From the NCBI GenBank assembly GCA_903840375.1, contig CAIMFR010000008.1:1-39176 (forward strand): a stretch of 39,176 nucleotides of DNA. Direction: 5' to 3'. Source of the stretch: Candidatus Adlerbacteria bacterium. GTDB taxonomy: Bacteria; Patescibacteriota; Minisyncoccia; Phycocordibacterales; SBAW01. Made by a program: the position numbers and the translations under genes. Numbering within the stretch: position 1 is the stretch's first letter; each line of letters starts with the position of its first letter. The notes beneath the pieces are model-generated. The model did no database searches. It was not told the DNA's origin and saw nothing but the letters and a program-made list of their open reading frames with translations. Of the stretch, positions 2,789 through 15,056 are shown piece after piece.

Positions 2789-2828
2789 GTCGCTTTTTCT
2801 GCGTCGCTCTTTCTGTTACTGTGTGTAT

Positions 2829-4712
2829 ATGATCCGAGATGATATTGAACAGGCGGTTAAGAAGGCGCTCGAGAGTTTTGGTGTTGGCGACACTTCATTT
2901 GTCGTGGAGCGACCGGGGGACATGGCTCACGGGGATTATTCCACGAACGCGGCTTTGATCGCCGGAAAGATGCTGAAGAAAAATCCTCGCGAGGTGGCGG
3001 AGGAGTTGGCAAAGATTCTGCGTTTGCAAATGGTCTGGCCTAGCCTTGCCGACCGGGCGATTGCCGGCGAGCTGGGAGAACCGAGGACCTTTGCAAATGC
3101 AGAATCTTTGCCAGCCTTGTCATTCATTGAAAAAACAGAAGTTGCCGGCGCTGGGTTCATCAATTTTACGCTTTCGCACGAGGCACGAGTCGCGGAAGTT
3201 TCGCGCGCTGCGACCGACGACGCTTGGGGTAAAAATAATTTATATGACGGGAAAAAGGTGATGGTCGAATATACTGACCCGAATCCTTTCAAGGCTTTTC
3301 ATATCGGACACTTGATGAGCAATGCCATCGGCGAGTCCATCGCTCGCGTGTTAGAGGTATCTGGTGCAAAAGTTGTGAGTGCGTGCTGGCAGGGTGACGT
3401 CGGGCTGCATGTGGCGAAAGCTCTGTGGGGAATACAGCGCGATGTCGCACATCTTCCGCAAGAGAGCAATTCACTCGAGGTAAAGTCTGCATTTCTCGGC
3501 GGAGCGTATGTTGCCGGCGCAACGGCGTATGACGACAATGCGGACGCGAAGGCGGAGATCGACGCGATAAATAAAAAAGTGTTCGACCGCTCCGACGCCG
3601 AGTTGAACGATTTGTATGCGAAGGGTCGTGCGTGGAGTTTGGAACATTTCGAGGAGATCTACAAAACACTTGGAACGCATTTCGACTATTATTTTTTTGA
3701 AGGTACCGAGGGCCGCGACGGCGAGAAGATCGTGCGCGAATTTTTGCAGAAAGGTGTGTTCGAAGAAAGCGACGGTGCGATAGTCTTTCCGGGAGAAAAG
3801 TACGGTTTGCACACTCGCGTGTTTATCACATCGCGCGGCTTGCCGACGTACGAAGCGAAAGAGCTTGGATTAAATAAGGCGAAGTTTGCCGCGGAGCCGG
3901 GCCTCGATGAGTCTATCATCGTCACTGCGAGCGAGCAGAATGATTATTTCACGGTCGCGCTCAAGGCGATGTCGATGATATTCCCGGACATTGCCCGCAA
4001 GACTAAACATGTATCGCACGGTATGATGCGTTTCGCTGCCGGAAAAATGTCGTCGCGCAGAGGTAATGTCATCACCGGCGAATCGCTACTTGCAGACTTG
4101 GCAGATGCCGCAAAAGAAAAAATGAAGGATAGGAAGTTGGCGGATGCGGATGGTGTTGCGCAGGCGATAGCGGTCGGAGCTATCAAATATGCCGTGCTCA
4201 AACAGGGGAGCGGCAAGGATATTATTTTCGATTCACAGAAAGCATTGTCGCTCGAGGGCGACTCCGGGCCATATCTACAGTATGCACACGTGCGTGCATT
4301 GTCTCTGATAAAAATGGCGAAAGATGCTGGGATCGAGACAGACACCTCCGAGCAGTCGGTATCTGCCGAAAAATGTGCGCTCCGGGCCGCTAGGCCAAGT
4401 CCTACCCATTTTTCAACAGGTACCGACTACTCGGAGGAAGATCCCTCTGTTTCTGCCGCCGCTCGCCACATCCTCGAACGCACCCTCCTTCATTTCCCGG
4501 AAATACTCGAACGCGCCGCTAAAGAACTCGAACCGCACCATATAACTACATATCTCACTGAACTCGCGTCAGCATTTAATGCATGGTACGCGGCAGAGCG
4601 AATTATTGGTGGCGAACATCCGCAATACGGACTTCTCTTGGCAGAAGCGGTGGAAAAAACTTTACTGCAAGGTTTAAACACTCTTGGTATTCCGGTCCCG
4701 GAGGAAATGTAG
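2829..4712 (+). CDS. argS: arginyl-tRNA synthetase, carrying two in-frame foldback insertions
   Basis: N-terminal Add-1-like region (HGDYSTNAAL, AGAGFINF), class I signature FHIGHLMS, MSSRRGN, and C-terminal anticodon-binding region (GPYLQYAHVR, EPHHITTYL). I prefer ATG 2829 (MIRDD...) over GTG 2823. Confidence 0.93.
   Translation: MIRDDIEQAVKKALESFGVGDTSFVVERPGDMAHGDYSTNAALIAGKMLKKNPREVAEELAKILRLQMVWPSLADRAIAGELGEPRTFANAESLPALSFIEKTEVAGAGFINFTLSHEARVAEVSRAATDDAWGKNNLYDGKKVMVEYTDPNPFKAFHIGHLMSNAIGESIARVLEVSGAKVVSACWQGDVGLHVAKALWGIQRDVAHLPQESNSLEVKSAFLGGAYVAGATAYDDNADAKAEIDAINKKVFDRSDAELNDLYAKGRAWSLEHFEEIYKTLGTHFDYYFFEGTEGRDGEKIVREFLQKGVFEESDGAIVFPGEKYGLHTRVFITSRGLPTYEAKELGLNKAKFAAEPGLDESIIVTASEQNDYFTVALKAMSMIFPDIARKTKHVSHGMMRFAAGKMSSRRGNVITGESLLADLADAAKEKMKDRKLADADGVAQAIAVGAIKYAVLKQGSGKDIIFDSQKALSLEGDSGPYLQYAHVRALSLIKMAKDAGIETDTSEQSVSAEKCALRAARPSPTHFSTGTDYSEEDPSVSAAARHILERTLLHFPEILERAAKELEPHHITTYLTELASAFNAWYAAERIIGGEHPQYGLLLAEAVEKTLLQGLNTLGIPVPEEM
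3005..3115 (+). repeat. in-frame foldback element A inside argS (111 nt = 37 codons)
   Basis: The 26-nt arms 3005-3030 and 3090-3115 are complementary at 24 of 26 positions, and both mismatches would be G-U pairs in sense RNA. The core 3031-3089 contains TGGTCTGGC, GCCGACCG and GAGAACCGAGGACC, all identical to element B. An inner hairpin spans 3040-3075. Confidence 0.8.
4345..4437. repeat. in-frame foldback element C inside argS (93 nt = 31 codons)
   Basis: The arms 4345-4375 and 4407-4437 are complementary except for 4 positions: one T-G at 4362/4420 and three C-A at 4353/4429, 4366/4416 and 4367/4415. The central 31 nt contain GGCC-GCTA-GGCC. The reverse complement shares TGGCCTAGC with element A. 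Confidence 0.7.
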
Positions 4713-4973: not shown

Positions 4974-5012
4974 ATATGGCAGCGAGCCGGATTTGTGGTA
5001 CATTCTTCATAT

Positions 5013-8000
5013 ATGGCAGAACCTGAGAAAGTTGTTGAAAAAGGCGAGGTAGCCTTGCGCGAGGAGGAGACTCTGGCCTTTTGGATAAAAGAGAAGATCT
5101 TCGAGAAGTCTTTGACTAAAGATGCACCTAAGGGTGATTTTGTCTTCTACGATGGGCCGCCTTTCGCTACAGGTTTGCCGCACACCGGTTCTCTGTTGGC
5201 ATCGGTCATCAAAGATGTTGTGCCGCGCTACAAGACGATGCGCGGTTTTCGCGTGCCACGCAAATGGGGGTGGGATTGCCACGGTTTGCCGGTTGAGAGT
5301 CTCATAGAAAAGCAGCTCAATCTCAAAACTAAAAAAGACATCGAGAAGATCGGCGTCGACACATTTAACGAAGCTGCGCGCGCGTCGGTGCTTAAGTTCG
5401 TCGACGATTGGGAAAAATATGTCAGCCGCGTCGGTCGCTGGGTTGATTTCAAAAATTCATATAAGACGATGGACAACTCGTACATCGAGAGCGTGTGGTG
5501 GACGTTGAAACGGCTCAACGGGAAAAAACTTTTGTACGAAGGCAAGAAAGTTTTGATGTACTGCGTACACTGCGAGACACCTCTTGCCAAGGCGGAGATC
5601 GCGATGGACAACACATACAAGATGATCACTGAGGAAGCTGTCACGGTGAAGTTCAAGATGAAAAATCAGGAGAAGCGCGGCATTCCGGCGAACGCATACA
5701 TTCTAGCGTGGACGACGACGCCATGGACTTTGCCCGGCAACGTCGCACTTGCGGTCAACCCCACTATCCCGTATGTGTTGGTGCAGAAAGGTGATGAATA
5801 TTTGATGGTGGCGAAGGAGAGGGTGAGCGCTGTGTTTGGTGGCGGCGGCGGCGTGGAAAAACTTCCTTCTGAAAATGGTCTGGCGTCAAGCCGACCGTCT
5901 TCGGTCGGTGTTGGCGAGAACCGAGGACCTTTTCAGAAGGAAGTTTTCCCCGACGTCGTGTCCGACGTCGTGTCCGAATTCCTCGGCAAAGAACTCATTG
6001 GCGCGGAGTATGAGCCTCTTTATACGGTGCCGGCAATCGCGAACACGAAGGGCAAAAAATACGTTGTCGTCGGAGCGGATTTCGTATCGACAGAAGACGG
6101 CACTGGGGTTGTACATATCGCGCCGATGTATGGCGAAGACGACTTTGCTGTTGGTAAAAAAGAAGGGTTGCCGATGGTGCAGCTCCTCTTACCGAACGGC
6201 AATTACACCGACCTCGTGCCGGAATTTCTGCGCGGACTATATCTCAAAGCCGGAAGCAAGTTTATCAAAGAAGACTTGGAGAAACGCGGTATTTTGTTCG
6301 GACGCGCGCCGCATTCACACTCATATCCGCACTGCTACCGCTGTGGCACACCGCTCATCTACAATGCGGTTGTGTCGTGGTTTATCAACATCCAGAAAGT
6401 GAAGAGCCGTATGCTCGCCGAGAATGAAAAGATCACGTGGGTACCGGAACATCTCAAGCACGGGCGCTTCAAACACAATGTCGAAACTGCGCCGGACTGG
6501 ACCATTTCGCGCAACCGTTTTTGGGCATCGCCGTTGCCTATATGGAAAGAGAAGGGTGGTGACGGGTTGATGGTCGTCGGCTCGCTCGACGAACTGCTTG
6601 TAAAGACGAAACATTCCGGCAATACATATTTTGTCATGCGGCATGGCGAGGCGCAGGCGAACCTGAAAGATATTTTTGAAACGAAAGGTGATGTGACCAA
6701 TCATCTCACAGAGACAGGTAAGGAACAGGCTCGCACAAGCGCTGAGTGGTTGAAGAAACATGGGCCGATCGATCTTATCGTACATTCGCCGTTGGTGCGT
6801 ACACGCGAGACTGCTTATATTGCGCAAAAAGTTCTCGGGCTCACTGACTCCGCGATGATGGTAGATGAAAGGTTGCGTGAGATGGGTGTCGGTATCCTCG
6901 AAGGCAAAACATTCGATGAGTGGGATAAATATTTCGACGCACCGCTCGAGCAGTTCACCAAGCGTGCGATCGAGGGCGCGGAAACATTCACCGACATTCG
7001 TCGCCGCGTGGGCGCATTTCTATTCGAAATAGACAAACGATACTCCGGCAAAAATATTCTTATCGTGACGCACGAATGTCCGGGTTGGCTTCTCAATGCT
7101 GTTGCGTCGCGACAGAGTATTGGAGAGTGTATGGAAGATCGCGTACAGCACGGCGGATTTCTTACTCGCGGCCAAGTGAAGCCTCTTTCATTCGCATCCT
7201 TCCCTCATAATGCAAACTTCGAGCTCGACCTCCATCGCCCGTACATTGATGCAGTAACACTTTTTGACAAAGCGGGGCGCGCGTACGAACGCATTCCGGA
7301 AGTTATAGACTGCTGGGTGGAGTCCGGCGCGATGCCGTTCGCCTCTGCTGGTTATCCGAAGAACAAAAAAACGATCAATCCTATTCGCTGGTTCGGACTC
7401 GCACCGAAAGGGTATCCGGGCGACTTTATTGCGGAGTACATCGCACAGACGCGCACGTGGTTCTATTATATGCACGCGCTCGGCATTCTGCTTTTTAACA
7501 AACGAGCATTCAACACTGTGGTCTCGACGGGTACGTTGCTTGCGTCTGATGGTGCGAAGATATCGAAGTCGAAAGGGAATTATACCGACCCGATGCTTCT
7601 CATGGATCGCTTCGGTGCGGACGCATTCAGGTTTCATTTGATGGGCAGCGTCGTGATGCAGGCGGAGGATCTCCAGTTCAAAGACGAAGATGTTCGCGAG
7701 GTGCACAACCGCGTTGTCGGCATGATCTGGAATTCATACAAGTTTTATGAATTATACAAAGCGAGTTACAGCGGAAAGGTGCGGAGTTCGGACAGTCCTC
7801 ATGTGCTCGATCGGTGGATTCGCGCACGGCTCGCCGACGTTGCGTTACAGACCACACAGGGGATGGATGCGTTCAATACGCCGAGCGTGTGCCGCGTCTT
7901 GCGCGAGTTCGTCGATGATTATTCGACTTGGTACTTGCGCCGTTCGCGCGCGCGGGTGAAGACTGACACGGAGGACAAGCAGTTCGCACTTGCGACGCAG

Positions 8001-8630
8001 CACGATGTGCTGATCGCGTTGGCAAAACTTACAGCTCCGCTGATGCCGTTCCTCGCGGAAAATGTGTACCGCGGCGTCGGCGGAGACATGGAGAGTGTTC
8101 ATCTCGATGTGTGGCCGGACTCGTGGGAGTTCCTCGCCGATGCGGTATTGCTTGAGAAAATGAAGCATACGCGCGCCACCGTGTCGCAAGCGCTCGACTT
8201 GCGTGAACGTGCGAATATAAAGGTTCGCCAGCCGCTCGCGGCGCTTTACCTGCCGCGCACTATTGACCTAGCAAGCGAGTTGGAATTGCTCGCGCTCATA
8301 AAAGATGAAGTAAATATAAAAAATATAGAGTTCACCGATGATGCGGATATGCGCCTCGACACTAGTATCACTCCGGAGTTGAAAGAGGAGGGAACGGTGC
8401 GCGACATCGTCCGTCAGATCCAAGACTTCCGCAAAAAAGAAAAACTCACCATAGATGCGCGTCCGTCGATCACCATAACCACCAACAAAGAAGGCGAAGC
8501 ATTTTTCAAAAAACAAAAAGAAGTCCTAATAAAAGAAACCGGCTTGGCAAAACTGTCGGTCAACGTTTCTTCGGAAGAAGCCACAGCACAAAGTCTGCAA
8601 TTCCCGGTTGTGATCGCTTTGGAGAAGTAA
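5013..8630 (+). CDS. ileS: isoleucyl-tRNA synthetase (type 2 / eukaryote-like) with an inserted histidine-phosphatase domain and a foldback insertion
   Basis: Motifs seen: PPFATGLPHTGS (HIGH position), WGWDCHGLPVE, TTTPWTLPGN, DWTISRNRFWASPLPIW, DLHRPYID, DCWVESGAMP, KISKSKGN (KMSKS), and a C-terminal anticodon-binding region. ATG 5013 is the likely start; GTG 4995 is possible. Confidence 0.93.
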   Translation: MAEPEKVVEKGEVALREEETLAFWIKEKIFEKSLTKDAPKGDFVFYDGPPFATGLPHTGSLLASVIKDVVPRYKTMRGFRVPRKWGWDCHGLPVESLIEKQLNLKTKKDIEKIGVDTFNEAARASVLKFVDDWEKYVSRVGRWVDFKNSYKTMDNSYIESVWWTLKRLNGKKLLYEGKKVLMYCVHCETPLAKAEIAMDNTYKMITEEAVTVKFKMKNQEKRGIPANAYILAWTTTPWTLPGNVALAVNPTIPYVLVQKGDEYLMVAKERVSAVFGGGGGVEKLPSENGLASSRPSSVGVGENRGPFQKEVFPDVVSDVVSEFLGKELIGAEYEPLYTVPAIANTKGKKYVVVGADFVSTEDGTGVVHIAPMYGEDDFAVGKKEGLPMVQLLLPNGNYTDLVPEFLRGLYLKAGSKFIKEDLEKRGILFGRAPHSHSYPHCYRCGTPLIYNAVVSWFINIQKVKSRMLAENEKITWVPEHLKHGRFKHNVETAPDWTISRNRFWASPLPIWKEKGGDGLMVVGSLDELLVKTKHSGNTYFVMRHGEAQANLKDIFETKGDVTNHLTETGKEQARTSAEWLKKHGPIDLIVHSPLVRTRETAYIAQKVLGLTDSAMMVDERLREMGVGILEGKTFDEWDKYFDAPLEQFTKRAIEGAETFTDIRRRVGAFLFEIDKRYSGKNILIVTHECPGWLLNAVASRQSIGECMEDRVQHGGFLTRGQVKPLSFASFPHNANFELDLHRPYIDAVTLFDKAGRAYERIPEVIDCWVESGAMPFASAGYPKNKKTINPIRWFGLAPKGYPGDFIAEYIAQTRTWFYYMHALGILLFNKRAFNTVVSTGTLLASDGAKISKSKGNYTDPMLLMDRFGADAFRFHLMGSVVMQAEDLQFKDEDVREVHNRVVGMIWNSYKFYELYKASYSGKVRSSDSPHVLDRWIRARLADVALQTTQGMDAFNTPSVCRVLREFVDDYSTWYLRRSRARVKTDTEDKQFALATQHDVLIALAKLTAPLMPFLAENVYRGVGGDMESVHLDVWPDSWEFLADAVLLEKMKHTRATVSQALDLRERANIKVRQPLAALYLPRTIDLASELELLALIKDEVNIKNIEFTDDADMRLDTSITPELKEEGTVRDIVRQIQDFRKKEKLTIDARPSITITTNKEGEAFFKKQKEVLIKETGLAKLSVNVSSEEATAQSLQFPVVIALEK
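5855..5949 (+). repeat. in-frame foldback element B inside the ileS editing-domain region
   Basis: A perfect 18-nt inverted repeat, 5858-5875 and 5930-5947 (90 nt = 30 codons), is extended by GG/CC after a bulged A. The core 5876-5929 contains TGGTCTGGC, GCCGACCG and GAGAACCGAGGACC, identical to element A. An inner 13-bp hairpin with a UCUU loop spans 5885-5915. Confidence 0.8.
5951..5974 (+). repeat. perfect 12-nt tandem duplication (CGACGTCGTGTC x2) in ileS
   Basis: Read directly from the sequence. It encodes DVVS-DVVS and begins 2-4 nt after element B ends. Confidence 0.9.
6621..7215 (+). other. histidine-phosphatase (phosphoglycerate-mutase-like, branch 1) domain embedded in IleRS
   Basis: The segment reads YFVMRHGEAQAN ... 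HSPLVRTRETA ... ERLREMGVGILEG ... ILIVTHECPG. These are the RHG motif, second Arg, acid/Glu region and distal His of the superfamily. IleRS motifs PLPIW (upstream) and DLHRPYID (downstream) flank it in the same frame. Confidence 0.85.
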
Positions 8631-12528: not shown

Positions 12529-12562
12529 ATCCACTAATTTCGCATATGCGAAATTAGTGGAT
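12529..12562. promoter_or_regulatory. perfect 34-nt palindrome upstream of glyQS (candidate operator or structure)
   Basis: ATCCACTAATTTCGCAT|ATGCGAAATTAGTGGAT has 17-nt arms with no spacer and no mismatch. The left arm together with the two preceding T's (12527-12535) reads TTATCCACT, matching a DnaA box at 8 of 9 positions. Confidence 0.5.
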
Positions 12563-12629
12563 GTTTTGCCTTGCTGTAAAAAATAAAAAATCAGTGTACT
12601 ATGTCGATATGGAACAGGGGAATGATTTG

Positions 12630-13934
12630 ATGGAAAAAATAGTGTCGCTGTGCAAGCGTCGCGGGTTCATATACCAAGGGTCTGAAATATACGGCGGGCT
12701 TGCGGGCACGTGGGATTACGGGCCGCTCGGCGTCGCGCTCAAAAATAATATAAAAAATACATGGTGGCGACTCTTCGTCGAAGGTCGCGATGATATGTAT
12801 GGCATAGATGCTGCGATACTCATGAGTCCGAAAGTGTGGGAAGCAAGCGGACACGTATCAGGTTTTTCCGACCCACTTGTCGAATGCGAAAAATGCAAGC
12901 GCCGTTTTCGCGCCGACCAAATAGAGGTTGGGGAAAATGGTATTCAATCTTGTCCGGACTGTGGTGCGAAGCTTGGCGCGTCTAGGCAATTCAACATGAT
13001 GTTCAAGACGCATATCGGCGCGACGGAGGACGAGTCGAGTGTGTCGTATCTTCGACCGGAAACAGCCGGCGGCATCTTTGTTAATTTTAAGAATGTCATG
13101 GATTCTTTCCACCCAAAACTTCCGTTTGGTATCGGGCAGGTGGGCAAGGCTTTCCGCAATGAGATAGCACCTCGCGATTTTATCTTTCGCGTGCGCGAGT
13201 TCGAACAGATGGAGATCGAATATTTCATTCGGCCGAGCGAATGGGAGGCGAAGTTTGAGGAATGGCGCGCTGCCGTGCATGAGTTCAATGCCGCGATCGG
13301 TATTCCAAAGGCGCAGGTGCACGAGCTTGAAGTTTTGCAGGAAGACCGTGCGTTTTACAGCAAACGCACGATAGATTTCGAATTCGATTTTCCGTTTGGC
13401 CGTAAAGAATTATATGGTTTGGCGTATCGCACCGATTACGATCTATCTGCGCATGAAAAAGGGTCAGGACAGCATCTTAGATATTCGGACGAGGGTGAGG
13501 AGTCGTTCGTGCCGCACGTCATAGAGCCGTCATTTGGTGTCGACCGCGCCGTGCTCGCCGTGCTCGCGTCCGCATATACAGAGGATGAGCTGGGAGGTGA
13601 GAAGCGCGTATATCTCAAATTGAAGCCGTCAGTCGCACCGGTTAAAGCTGCCGTTTTTCCATTGCTCAAAAACAAACCGGAGTTGGTGGCAAAAGCTCGC
13701 GAAATCTACATCGCTCTCAAAAAAGAAATCCCGCAGATAATGTGGGACGACAACGGCAACATCGGCAAACGCTATCGTAGGCAGGACGAGATAGGCACGC
13801 CGTGGTGCGTCACGGTCGACTTCGATACATTGGAAAACGGCACAGTTACCGTACGTGATCGCGACACCGGGCAGCAGGAGCGTGTGTCGGCGGCAGAACT
13901 CGCCAAGTTGTTTTCAGAAAAGATAAAAGTTTAA
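12630..13934 (+). CDS. glyQS: glycyl-tRNA synthetase (dimeric alpha2 type)
   Basis: Motifs: RRGFIYQGSEIYGGLAGTWDYGPLG, FRADQ...CPDCG, YLRPETAGGIF, FRNEIAPRDFIFRVREFEQMEIEYF, EPSFGVDR, and a C-terminal anticodon-binding domain. The start is ATG 12630 (MEKIVSL), or possibly 12609. Confidence 0.93.
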   Translation: MEKIVSLCKRRGFIYQGSEIYGGLAGTWDYGPLGVALKNNIKNTWWRLFVEGRDDMYGIDAAILMSPKVWEASGHVSGFSDPLVECEKCKRRFRADQIEVGENGIQSCPDCGAKLGASRQFNMMFKTHIGATEDESSVSYLRPETAGGIFVNFKNVMDSFHPKLPFGIGQVGKAFRNEIAPRDFIFRVREFEQMEIEYFIRPSEWEAKFEEWRAAVHEFNAAIGIPKAQVHELEVLQEDRAFYSKRTIDFEFDFPFGRKELYGLAYRTDYDLSAHEKGSGQHLRYSDEGEESFVPHVIEPSFGVDRAVLAVLASAYTEDELGGEKRVYLKLKPSVAPVKAAVFPLLKNKPELVAKAREIYIALKKEIPQIMWDDNGNIGKRYRRQDEIGTPWCVTVDFDTLENGTVTVRDRDTGQQERVSAAELAKLFSEKIKV

Positions 13935-13988: not shown

Positions 13989-15056
13989 ATGAACGACAGG
14001 AATATTACGGTCAACATCACATCTGGGAGCATAATCCGCACCATACTTTTCCTTTTGCTCATGACTGTATTGTGGTTCTTGCGCGACATCGTGTTGATCG
14101 TTTTGACCGCCGTGGTAATCGCATCGTCGATGGAACCTGGTGTGCGCGTGCTGATGCGTCGCGCCAAGATCTCGCGTGTATTCGCGGTTACCAGCATCTA
14201 CGCGCTCACCGGCATCGTATTTTTCGGCACTCTGGTGTTCTTTATTCCGCCGCTTCTTAATGATGCATCCACATTTCTTTCCCGACTTCCTAGTGCTCTA
14301 ACTTCATTTAACATTTCAGATGTTACGCACGGGCTTTTGCCGTGGGGCAATGTGTCAGACACCATCTCATCCTCCGATCTTTTGCGAAATATTTCCACTA
14401 CCATCGCCAACACAACGGGCGGCGTATTCACTACACTTTCGGCATTTTTCGGCGGACTGTATTCATTTGTGCTTATCGTCGTTTTTGCGATTTACTTTTC
14501 AGTGCAGGAGACGGGCGTTGAAGATTTCTTGCGCATCGTGACACCGGTCGGAAAGGAAGCATACGTGCTCCATCTATGGAAACGCTCGCAGGAAAAAATA
14601 GGCAAGTGGATGCAGGGTCAGCTGGTGCTCGCGGCGCTCGTGAGTATTTTACTCTATCTCGGCCTCGTGATCCTCGGCGTGCCAAATGCGCTTTTGCTCG
14701 CCGCAATAGCCGCTGTATTCGAACTCATTCCTGTATTCGGGCAATTTATGGCCGCAATCCCGGCCATTGTTGTCGCTTTCGGAAGCGGCGGCACGACGCT
14801 TGCACTTTTGGTCGCCGGACTTTACCTGATAGTGCAGCAATTCGAGGCACATCTCATCTATCCGCTCGTCGTTAAAAAGATCGTCGGCGTGCCGCCGCTT
14901 CTCGTCATACTTTCGCTCATTGTCGGATTAAAAATGGTAGGTTTTCTCGGTGTACTTCTTTCCGTGCCGATCGCCGGAGCGATACAGGAATATGTTTCTG
15001 ACATTAGCCGTGAAAAAGCTCGTGTGCTTGCTCAGAGGGGGTTGACTACGGAATGA
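13989..15056 (+). CDS. AI-2E family transporter (PerM/YhhT-like permease)
   Basis: A polytopic membrane protein with the family-typical C-terminal region: ELIPVFGQFMAAIPAIVVAF...LIVQQFEAHLIYPLVVKKIVGVPPLLVILSL. Confidence 0.85.
   Translation: MNDRNITVNITSGSIIRTILFLLLMTVLWFLRDIVLIVLTAVVIASSMEPGVRVLMRRAKISRVFAVTSIYALTGIVFFGTLVFFIPPLLNDASTFLSRLPSALTSFNISDVTHGLLPWGNVSDTISSSDLLRNISTTIANTTGGVFTTLSAFFGGLYSFVLIVVFAIYFSVQETGVEDFLRIVTPVGKEAYVLHLWKRSQEKIGKWMQGQLVLAALVSILLYLGLVILGVPNALLLAAIAAVFELIPVFGQFMAAIPAIVVAFGSGGTTLALLVAGLYLIVQQFEAHLIYPLVVKKIVGVPPLLVILSLIVGLKMVGFLGVLLSVPIAGAIQEYVSDISREKARVLAQRGLTTE

What the first reader, a model, noticed from the sequence alone, without database searches (positions are those of the whole stretch)
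5855..5949. Foldback element B in ileS: same conserved core as element A, with different but still complementary arms and inner hairpin
Seen in sequence:
- A perfect 18-nt inverted repeat (AAAACTTCCTTCTGAAAA at 5858-5875, TTTTCAGAAGGAAGTTTT at 5930-5947) flanks a 54-nt core.
- The three blocks identical to element A are TGGTCTGGC (5876-5884), GCCGACCG (5890-5897) and a 17-mer GAGAACCGAGGACCTTT (5916-5932, matching 3076-3092).
- The outer arms of A and B share no sequence similarity, yet both pair.
- In both elements the inner helix starts right after block 1 and ends right before GAGAACC. It differs in sequence: A pairs CUAGC-C-UUGCCG...CGGCGA-GCUGG, and B pairs GUCAA-GCCGACCG-UCUU-CGGUCGGU-G-UUGGC.
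- In both, GGUC can pair with GACC to extend the outer helix. This leaves an asymmetric internal loop (5' UGGC, 3' GAGAACCGAG).
- The length is 90 nt (30 codons), and the element is translated in a different frame from A (GENRGPF versus GEPRTF).

Inference:
- Conserved single-stranded blocks combined with compensatory helices are what one expects from a structure under selection. That could be an RNA motif or a hairpin DNA recognised by a protein, for example a REP/RAYT-like system.
- The different reading frames argue that the peptide is not what is conserved.
- By my rough estimate a single 17-mer repeat could arise by chance in 39 kb. The co-linear 9-mer and 8-mer blocks in the same palindromic context make chance unlikely.
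Basis: partly seen in the sequence, partly recalled or inferred. Interest (0 to 1): 0.75.

Follow-up and report, generated by a model that had tools for sequence, protein, structure and literature searches.

The report
Translated mobile hairpin element in CPR bacteria
The hairpin in ileS is one copy of an apparently undescribed family of small palindromic "selfish" DNA elements that sit in frame inside essential genes across the Candidate Phyla Radiation and are most likely translated as disordered protein loops, much like the palindromic elements of Rickettsia.

Summary
Element B (5855-5949) and element A (3007-3113) are two copies of one family.

- **Family.** An exact-pattern scan of 185,579 species genomes found 46 more copies with the same anatomy. 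Every copy with an informative record title is from Patescibacteria (CPR).
- **Anatomy.** Each copy has a conserved asymmetric core, GGUCUGGCC...GGAGAACCGAGGACC, around a variable inner hairpin. Arms of about 21 bp enclose the core. They differ between copies but are 95% paired.
- **Location.** 41 of 48 copies lie in frame, without stops, inside housekeeping genes, in either orientation. Seven fill intergenic gaps.
- **Insertions.** Empty-site relatives show they are insertions. B adds a loop that AlphaFold models as disordered.
- **Dynamics.** The same protein loops are occupied again and again in distant lineages. Close relatives can carry the core in opposite orientation. Core and element can be far more conserved than the host gene.
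- **Folding strand.** Arm mismatches favour G·U on the element's own strand whatever the gene orientation. The folding strand is therefore the element's, not the host mRNA.

Best reading: a non-autonomous mobile hairpin, similar to Rickettsia palindromic elements (RPEs), moved through a single-stranded intermediate by an unidentified enzyme. No Rfam family matched, no transposase was found nearby, and I found no prior description.

The parts
5855..5949 (+). Element B, whole hairpin, in frame in ileS. It encodes ...VEKLPSENGLASSRPSSVGVGENRGPFQKEVFP...
   Evidence: The covariance model scores it 62.0 bits. Relatives are empty at this site. The AlphaFold model shows a disordered loop here.
5858..5875 (+). 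B, 5' arm AAAACTTCCTTCTGAAAA. It is a diverged version of the subfamily arm AGAAACTTTCTGAAGAAAA.
5877..5884 (+). B, conserved 5' core block GGTCTGGC, preceded by the bulged T at 5876
5885..5915 (+). B, variable inner hairpin GUCAAGCCGACCG-UCUU-CGGUCGGUGUUGGC
5916..5929 (+). B, conserved 3' core block GAGAACCGAGGACC
5930..5947 (+). B, 3' arm TTTTCAGAAGGAAGTTTT
3007..3113 (+). Element A, whole hairpin, in frame in argS. Arms are at 3007-3030 and 3090-3113, and the core at 3032-3089.
   Evidence: The covariance model scores it 73.2 bits. ArgRS homologs are empty or filled at this site.
4995..8630 (+). Host gene ileS (1211 aa, with an inserted His_Phos_1 domain). B lies in the CP1 editing-domain region.
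2823..4712 (+). Host gene argS (629 aa). A lies in the N-terminal domain loop.
5950..5973 (+). 12-nt tandem duplication CCGACGTCGTGT x2 directly 3' of B. It may be a by-product of the insertion or may be unrelated.

Best explanation
Elements A and B are copies of a non-autonomous, palindromic selfish DNA element family specific to CPR/Patescibacteria.

**What is shown**
- The unit is about 90-120 nt. It has a conserved asymmetric core, GGUCUGGCC-[variable hairpin]-GGAGAACCGAGGACC, subfamily-specific inner arms, and outer arms that differ from copy to copy.
- It is an insertion relative to empty-site homologs.
- Intragenic copies always keep the reading frame and carry no stop codon, in either orientation.
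- The conserved blocks are stop-free in all six frames.

**What is inferred**
- The element is translated and tolerated because surviving copies sit in surface loops and linkers. B is modelled as a disordered loop of the IleRS editing domain.
- The core is the recognition structure for an enzyme acting in trans that has not been identified.
- The active form is a single strand of fixed polarity (ssDNA or RNA), because arm mismatches are tolerated as G·U or G·T on the element's sense strand only.
- Arm complementarity is kept up, and sometimes extended into host flanks, by conversion between the arms. Hairpin template switching is the likely mechanism.
- Cores are exchanged, re-seeded or inverted between the arms. 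This would explain opposite orientations and cores that are much younger than their host genes.
For: **Family and anatomy**
- 46 further copies were found, and every copy with an informative record title is from a CPR genome. The 5 hits outside the CPR lack arms, against about 2 chance hits expected by my own calculation from collection size and pattern length.
- The covariance model finds more copies and variants.
- Outer-helix covariation beats all 500 shuffles.

**Location**
- 22 copies are sense, 19 antisense and 7 intergenic. Every intragenic copy is in frame.
- Host genes are RecG, MnmA, UvrB, PolA, TruB, LepA, Dus, ParB, TsaD, UvrC, a CCA-adding/poly(A) polymerase-family enzyme, PheT, LigA, DnaE, ArgRS and IleRS.

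**Insertion shown by empty sites**
- IleRS relatives are empty where B sits.
- LepA L058 is empty where L048 carries 102 nt, which is essentially the whole hairpin.
- UvrB carries 39 aa exactly between RPI and KGQI.
- LigA carries +40 aa, equal to the 121-nt hairpin.

**Mobility and turnover**
- The identical 17-19-nt arm occurs in DnaE, ArgRS and ArgRS of three different genomes.
- L014 versus L048: the element is about 96-98% identical (2 differences in the ~104-nt hairpin) while lepA is about 74-76% identical, with third codon positions differing in most codons.
- L053 versus L056: core plus inner arms match at 69 of 72 positions but in opposite orientation. Outer arms match at 24 of 35, and the differences are mirrored in the two arms (compensatory). 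The host gene is 85.7% identical.
- The IleRS site is also occupied, independently, in P0241/L060.
- 50 of 118 LepA homologs and 21 of 97 ArgRS homologs carry insertions in the same loop.

**Strand polarity**
- G·U versus A·C mismatches are 24:7 (p = 0.003), and 13:2 in copies antisense to their gene.
- Element orientation is unrelated to GC skew, 24 of 48.

**Tolerance in the protein**
- In the AlphaFold model, pLDDT is below 50 only in the inserted loop.

**Precedents**
- Rickettsia palindromic elements (RPEs) insert in frame in Rickettsia genes (PMC10969869).
- Arm conversion in coding palindromes has been described (PMC6649704).
Against: - No transposase, RAYT, reverse transcriptase or autonomous long copy was found in the window or in the loci, and there are no solo ends.
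- No target-site duplication was detected.
- Transposition has not been observed, only inferred from presence/absence and sequence identity.
- The near-invariance of 22 core nucleotides is partly an ascertainment effect of the search pattern.
- Very high conservation of the core, and the maintained pairing, could instead reflect a host-level function.
- Recurrence at the same sites could be old vertical inheritance with loss, rather than repeated insertion.
Confidence: 0.7

Rival explanations
1. A host-beneficial structured RNA, such as a protein-binding motif, processing site or small ribozyme, embedded in mRNAs. Selection would maintain the hairpin and the core.
For: - The folds are strong.
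- The helices show compensatory change.
- The core is more conserved than the host gene.
- G·U is tolerated on one strand.
- Tandem G·A motifs and fixed bulges in the core look like a protein-binding RNA module (inference).
Against: - 19 of 41 intragenic copies are antisense to the host gene, so the mRNA carries the complement.
- The G·U bias is strongest in exactly those copies, 13:2.
- No Rfam family matches.
- Presence is patchy among close relatives.
- Copies sit in unrelated genes with no common position.
Confidence: 0.1
2. An intragenic invertible cassette ('inverton'). The inverted-repeat arms would be recombination sites, and flipping the stop-free core would switch the peptide displayed in a protein loop.
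For: - Close relatives carry the same core in opposite orientation between homologous arms.
- Same-site orthologs in MnmA, Dus and the CCA-adding/poly(A) polymerase-family enzyme differ in orientation.
- The core blocks are stop-free in all six frames.
- Intragenic invertons exist in bacteria (10.1101/2023.03.11.532203).
Against: - No invertase gene is nearby.
- The loop is predicted to be disordered and lies in housekeeping enzymes, where phase variation has no obvious use.
- Orientation differences are equally explained by independent insertion or by rare recombination between the arms.
- Within-population polymorphism was not tested.
Confidence: 0.08
3. An RNA-level intervening sequence: a small intron, a hairpin excised by RNase III and religated, or a translational bypass element. 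In that case the insert would not appear in the protein.
For: - A hairpin of 20-35 bp brings the two junctions together.
- Homing-like recurrence at conserved sites of essential genes.
- Bypassed palindromic inserts exist in yeast mitochondria (cited in PMC6649704).
Against: - All 41 intragenic copies preserve the frame and lack stops. Unconstrained, I estimate about 8% per copy would do so by chance.
- Both orientations occur.
- No take-off/landing codon pair or stop codon is present.
Confidence: 0.04
4. Chance similarity, or hairpins that evolved independently in situ in argS and ileS.
For: Only two copies occur in this window.
Against: - 46 further copies with the same anatomy were found in other genomes.
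- The expected number of 17-mer matches in the window is 0.08.
Confidence: 0.01

Closest known systems
Rickettsia palindromic elements (RPE-1 to RPE-10)
   Same: - Short palindromic repeats inserted in frame into many unrelated housekeeping genes of a reduced-genome bacterium.
- They are translated as extra peptide segments that appear compatible with the protein fold.
- No transposase is known (PMC10969869).
   Different: - The hosts are from an unrelated phylum. Sequence similarity to RPEs was not tested.
- In RPEs each family encodes a conserved peptide. Here all six frames are used.
- Here the conserved part is a roughly 25-nt asymmetric core at the centre of the hairpin, and the arms vary.
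- RPE arms lose identity over time (as stated in PMC6649704). Here pairing is kept at 95% and changes are compensatory.
Coding palindromes of Nematomorpha mitochondrial genes
   Same: - Inverted repeats lie inside translated genes.
- Arm identity appears to be actively maintained.
- Gains and losses are dynamic.
- Template switching or repeat conversion is proposed as the mechanism (PMC6649704).
   Different: - Those repeats have no common core and are not a dispersed repeat family.
- Both of their arms encode conserved native protein.
- Here the hairpin is extra DNA with a shared core.
REP/REPIN elements mobilised by RAYT (IS200/IS605-type Y1 transposases), and PATE-like derivatives
   Same: - Short hairpin-forming repeats with extrahelical bases.
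- They are thought to act as single-stranded DNA of one polarity.
- They produce no target-site duplication and are non-autonomous.
   Different: - REPs are extragenic.
- Their conserved part is the palindrome arm with a 5' GTAG.
- A RAYT gene is present in REP-bearing genomes. None was seen here, though whole genomes were not scanned.
Classical bacterial MITEs (Correia, ERIC, BOX, Coxiella QMITE)
   Same: - Small size and non-autonomous.
- Sometimes intragenic, giving in-frame fusions (PMC10969869).
   Different: - MITEs have conserved terminal inverted repeats, target-site duplications and a recognisable parent IS.
- None of these three features was found here.
Integron attC sites and ssoA-type single-strand origins
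   Same: - Structure is conserved more than sequence.
- Extrahelical bases define the active strand.
- They function as a folded single strand.
   Different: - In attC the conserved boxes are at the base of the stem and the centre varies, which is the opposite of this element.
- The genomic context differs: cassettes or rolling-circle plasmids.
- Here there is no orientation bias relative to genes or GC skew.

Membership tests
RPE-like 'protein-coding palindromes' (functional class) | A dispersed palindromic repeat of about 100-150 bp, present in many copies | tested here: met
   48 copies with hairpins of 90-120 nt
RPE-like 'protein-coding palindromes' (functional class) | In-frame, stop-free insertion inside unrelated ORFs | tested here: met
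   41 of 48 copies lie inside ORFs of at least 150 aa in housekeeping genes. Empty-site homologs confirm insertion.
RPE-like 'protein-coding palindromes' (functional class) | Sequence homology to a described RPE family, and occurrence in Rickettsia | not tested
   No RPE sequences were compared. The hosts are Patescibacteria, so this is an analogue, not a member.
MITE | Terminal inverted repeats conserved between copies | tested here: inconclusive
   The arms pair within each copy, but outer arms are unrelated between copies. One subfamily shares a 17-19-nt arm.
MITE | Direct target-site duplication | tested here: not met
   No arm/flank duplication signal was found: 5.5 against a null of 5.1 ± 1.3. 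The filled versus empty LepA site shows at most a possible 3-nt AAG repeat.
MITE | A related autonomous IS with the same ends | tested here: not met
   No solo or long-spaced ends in 384 kb of loci. No transposase in the window. Whole genomes were not scanned.
REP/REPIN-RAYT | Extragenic location | tested here: not met
   85% of copies are intragenic
REP/REPIN-RAYT | Conserved palindrome arms with a 5' GTAG/CTAC tetranucleotide | tested here: not met
   The conserved part is the centre of the hairpin, and the arms vary
REP/REPIN-RAYT | A cognate RAYT (Y1 HUH) gene in the genome | not testable with these tools
   None in the 39-kb window. The full genomes were not available.
Rfam structured RNA or ribozyme | A match to a curated covariance model | tested here: not met
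   No hits at gathering threshold. Only microRNA-like noise at E > 0.1.
Cis-regulatory mRNA structure | Fixed orientation relative to the host transcript | tested here: not met
   22 sense against 19 antisense
Integron attC | Conserved R''/R' boxes at the stem base, a variable centre, and cassette context | tested here: not met
   The architecture is the opposite, and the copies lie inside housekeeping genes
Intron, intein or bypass element | Removal from the RNA or protein, so no constraint on frame or stops | tested here: not met
   41 of 41 intragenic copies are in frame and stop-free. At 30 aa the insert is too short for an intein.

The most novel reading that the evidence does not exclude
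The core may be the recognition hairpin of a still-unknown single-strand-specific mobilisation or homing system in CPR bacteria. That system would repeatedly re-seed, replace or flip cores within a small set of loop 'slots' in essential genes, roughly 100 by my estimate. The arms would be kept paired by conversion. On this reading it is a new class of mobile element, a hairpin-homing element with a conserved centre and free ends, rather than a decaying MITE.
Probability: 0.3. Interest if true: 0.85.

Novelty: new variant of a known kind. Interest (0 to 1): 0.68.

Why it matters
- In-frame 'protein-coding palindromes' are best known from Rickettsia. This family suggests the phenomenon is widespread in the CPR, a large bacterial radiation with tiny genomes. 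It would account for part of the puzzling extra loops and length differences in their housekeeping proteins.
- The inverted architecture (conserved centre, variable but paired arms) differs from known elements. So do the polarity signal that is independent of host transcription, the recurrent occupation of the same loops, and cores that are younger than their host genes. Together these point to a mobilisation or conversion mechanism not covered by known transposon families.
- The core gives a precise probe (pattern and covariance model) for finding the responsible enzyme by co-occurrence.
- On the practical side, these inserts can confound gene calling, protein alignment and phylogeny, and assembly of CPR metagenome-assembled genomes.

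Tried and rejected
1. **'One arm is native, the other is an inverted copy of the target made at insertion.'** ArgRS and MnmA loops suggested this, because the hairpin is longer than the net insertion. It was rejected as a general rule. In UvrB, LepA, LigA and at the IleRS site of B, the net insertion equals the whole hairpin. What remains is that the outermost pairs can extend into, or overwrite, host flanks in permissive loops.
2. **Direct target-site duplication or tandem copy of the flank.** No signal was found.
3. **Known RNA families and tRNA-like origin.** Nothing was found.
4. **Replication-strand or mutation-bias explanation of the G·U excess.** Element orientation is unrelated to GC skew.
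5. **Autonomous parent or solo ends in 384 kb of loci.** None were found.
6. **Phage origin.** No match in the viral contigs.
7. **Candidate enzymes in the window.** Only housekeeping genes are present.
8. **Literature.** Seven full-text searches found no description of this element. The library holds open-access papers only, so a prior report cannot be excluded.
9. **The metagenome scan was not used**, because the genome scan already gave enough copies.
Full report
**1. Observation**

The sequence is as described. Perfect 18-nt arms at 5858-5875 and 5930-5947 flank a 54-nt centre. That centre shares TGGTCTGGC, GCCGACCG and the 17-mer GAGAACCGAGGACCTTT with a second hairpin at 3007-3113.

The 17-mer occurs only at these two places in the window. 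0.08 matches are expected even with 3 mismatches allowed. Both hairpins fold far better than shuffled controls, with z = -8.5 and -6.5.

B lies in a 1211-aa ileS ORF and A in a 629-aa argS ORF. Both are in frame but read in different phases. No Rfam family and no tRNA-like gene matches.

**2. It is a family**

An exact scan of one genome per species for GGTCTGGC-N20-50-GAGAACCGAGGACC returned 50 loci.

- 46 copies have the same anatomy as A and B. Every copy with an informative record title is from Patescibacteria: Saccharibacteria, Nomura-, Adler-, Vogel- and Paceibacteria.
- The 5 hits in other phyla have no arms. About 2 chance hits were expected, by my own calculation from collection size and pattern length.
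- A covariance model built from the 48 copies finds only A and B in the window. In the loci it finds four more copies and several core variants, such as AGUC...GACU with a compensatory pair, GAGAUCC, and GGAAGC...GGCCCGAGGACC.

The anatomy, from outside to inside, is as follows.

- Outer arms have a median length of 21 bp, are unrelated between copies, and are 94.6% paired.
- Inner arms are subfamily-specific: ...CUGAAGAAAAU/UUUUCGGAAGG... with a purine-purine loop, or ...UUUUNNGAAU/UGANNAAAA...
- A bulged U follows.
- GGUCU pairs with GGACC, followed by a GA bulge. GG then pairs with CC, followed by an AGAA bulge. CC then pairs with GG.
- A variable hairpin sits at the centre, often closed by tandem G·A pairs.

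In the outer helix 95.2% of cells are paired against 73.9% in shuffles. The covariation score is 0.513 against 0.106, and 0 of 500 shuffles reach it. The invariance of the two core blocks is partly imposed by the search pattern.

**3. Where the copies sit**

Of the 48 copies, 22 lie in the sense orientation and 19 in the antisense orientation inside long ORFs. All of these are in frame and stop-free. The remaining 7 exactly fill short gaps between genes.

Host genes are core housekeeping genes: RecG, MnmA, UvrB, PolA, TruB, LepA, Dus, ParB, TsaD, UvrC, a CCA-adding/poly(A) polymerase-family enzyme, PheT, LigA, DnaE, ArgRS and IleRS. The two conserved blocks contain no stop codon in any of the six frames.

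Forty-one of 41 open frames is not compatible with an untranslated insert such as an intron or bypass element. I infer that the elements are translated.

An AlphaFold2 model of IleRS residues 151-535, built with 80 sequences, has a mean pLDDT of 87.5. It places element B (model residues 139-168) in the only long low-confidence, unstructured loop, where residues 144-169 have pLDDT below 50. The loop lies between a helix and a strand of the editing-domain region.

**4. They are insertions**

- **IleRS.** Three syntenic relatives (40-65% identity) read ...VFG-DAAETEG-EVLG... where the window has 45 residues: a GGGG run, the 30-aa hairpin and a DVVS duplication. Against the T. thermophilus CP1 domain the extra segment lies between residues 64 and 76. 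Both arms of B are therefore inserted DNA.
- **UvrB.** 39 aa lie exactly between the adjacent conserved residues RPI and KGQI.
- **LigA.** The net gain is 40 aa, against a hairpin of 121 nt.
- **LepA.** The net gain is 34 aa, against a hairpin of 104 nt. A homolog 87% identical is empty: VPPP-QQTSATSPRA-LIFDFQY.
- **ArgRS and MnmA.** In these variable loops the hairpin is 14-30 nt longer than the net insertion, and the outermost arm bases coincide with native codons.

I first read the ArgRS and MnmA result as an inverted duplication of the target. The exact cases above reject that as a general rule. The remaining inference is that palindromes can spread a few pairs into permissive flanks. No direct target duplication was detected.

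**5. Dynamics**

*Same sites recur.*

- Different loci carry the element at the same residue position of homologous proteins that are only 51-66% identical. This holds for MnmA (3 loci), Dus (4), ParB, the CCA-adding/poly(A) polymerase-family enzyme, LigA and UvrB, and sometimes the orientation is opposite.
- Fourteen coincident pairs among 1128 possible pairs imply on the order of 100 usable sites. This is my estimate.
- 50 of 118 CPR LepA homologs carry an insertion of more than 12 aa in one 10-aa linker, and 21 of 97 ArgRS homologs carry one in the loop that holds A. These include this family in several frames and orientations, other hairpin families, and double insertions.
- The IleRS site of B is also occupied in the closest IleRS homolog, P0241/L060. 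That copy is antisense, has the GAGAUCC core and has unrelated arms, so it is an independent event.

*Age of the element relative to the gene.*

- **L014 versus L048.** The lepA genes are about 74-76% identical, with third codon positions differing in most codons. The element differs at only 2 positions of the ~104-nt hairpin, or 96% identity in the 106-nt window. The 30-70 nt on each side are also less diverged than the rest of the gene.
- **L053 versus L056.** The argS genes are 85.7% identical. Core plus inner arms match at 69 of 72 positions, but in opposite orientation. Outer arms match at only 24 of 35, and the differences are mirrored in the two arms, so they are compensatory.
- **L048 versus L059.** The arms are homologous, with two compensatory pairs, but the core is different.
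- An identical 17-19-nt arm occurs in DnaE and in two ArgRS genes of three genomes.

*Interpretation.* Cores, with their inner arms, move, get replaced or flip faster than the host genes diverge. The arms drift quickly but stay paired.

**6. Which strand folds**

Among arm mismatches, G·U on the element's sense strand outnumbers A·C by 24 to 7 (p = 0.003). In copies antisense to their host gene the ratio is 13 to 2.

Element orientation is random with respect to local GC skew (24 of 48), and the skew itself follows gene orientation. The bias is therefore neither a mutational strand effect nor selection on the host mRNA. It indicates that the element's own sense strand must fold as a single strand, either ssDNA or an element-sense RNA.

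**7. Explanation**

*Best-supported reading (confidence 0.7).* This is a non-autonomous selfish hairpin element.

- It is mobilised in trans through a single-stranded intermediate by an enzyme that recognises the asymmetric core.
- In these gene-dense genomes it survives only where an extra, mostly disordered, stop-free peptide is tolerated.
- Arm pairing is maintained, and occasionally extended, by conversion between the arms. Template switching has been proposed for coding palindromes (PMC6649704).
- Recombination between arms, or re-seeding, gives both orientations.

*Shown.*
- It is a family, and its copies are insertions.
- Intragenic copies preserve the reading frame and occur in both orientations.
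- The arms change in a compensatory way.
- The core is more conserved than the host gene.
- The mismatches show a strand polarity.

*Inferred.* Translation, the nature of the intermediate, the conversion mechanism and the enzyme.

*Weaknesses.* No mobilising gene, no target-site duplication and no autonomous copy was found, and there is no match in viral contigs.

*Rivals.* A functional RNA motif (0.10), an intragenic inverton (0.08), an intron or bypass element (0.04) and chance (0.01). Each is set out with its tests in the rival-explanations section.

**8. Comparison and novelty**

Functionally the closest known system is the Rickettsia palindromic elements (RPEs), which also insert in frame and are translated (PMC10969869). 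This family is an analogue and not a member. The phylum differs, all frames are used, the conserved part is the centre with free arms, and pairing is maintained instead of decaying.

It fails the defining tests for MITEs (conserved terminal repeats, target-site duplication, parent IS). It also fails those for REP/RAYT (extragenic location, GTAG arms), for attC sites and for Rfam RNAs.

Seven full-text searches found no description of it. I rate it a new variant of a known kind, with a 0.3 chance that it represents a new type of mobile system.

**9. Limits**

- The copies were ascertained with an exact 22-nt pattern.
- Only 8-kb loci, not whole genomes, were examined.
- Net insertion sizes in variable loops are uncertain by about 3 aa.
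- There is no expression or population data.

Noticed in passing
window 4345-4437: A third in-frame hairpin in argS. Its arms are 31 nt and 87% complementary, and its 31-nt centre is different (UGCGCUCCGGGCCGCUAGGCCAAGUCCUACC). It lies in a second hypervariable loop of CPR ArgRS and probably belongs to another hairpin-element family.
   Followed up: partly
window 5950-5973 and 5838-5854: A perfect 12-nt tandem duplication, CCGACGTCGTGT x2 (PDVVSDVVS), lies directly 3' of element B. A GGC-repeat encoding GGGGG lies directly 5'. Both are absent from relatives.
   Followed up: partly
window 12529-12562: A perfect 34-bp palindrome, ATCCACTAATTTCGCAT|ATGCGAAATTAGTGGAT, sits at the start of the class II aaRS ORF (12561-13934). 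It looks like an operator.
   Followed up: no
window 14782-14901: A 17-nt inverted repeat, 94% complementary and 86 nt apart, lies inside the AI-2E transporter gene. The fold z-score is -3.7. It is not of the same family.
   Followed up: partly
window 4995-8630; L051-L054, L056, L060: IleRS of this clade (1150-1211 aa) carries an inserted histidine-phosphatase (His_Phos_1) domain. The order DUF2914-argS-ileS is syntenic across relatives.
   Followed up: no
L005 UvrB residues 341-384 (within L005:2921-5266): A second 44-aa insertion in the same UvrB. It forms a hairpin with 32-nt arms and a branched centre, and is another element family.
   Followed up: partly
L008 6851-6968 and 7368-7433: Two copies about 490 nt apart have near-identical arms but different centres, and they flank a small ORF.
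   Followed up: no
L037 612-631: A half-copy, GGTCTGGCCGAAGTGTCGCC, lies 60 nt upstream of a full copy in ParB. This suggests nested or successive insertions at a hot spot.
   Followed up: no
LepA, ArgRS and IleRS homologs P0001-P0360: Other recurrent insert peptides occur in the same loops: LSASQVPQPS, GYGDFSAEKSPEVLAPS, GGGGQTA.QFGDK.FSKE and SPST...DGVGVHVQQ. This indicates several more families of translated inserts in the CPR.
   Followed up: no
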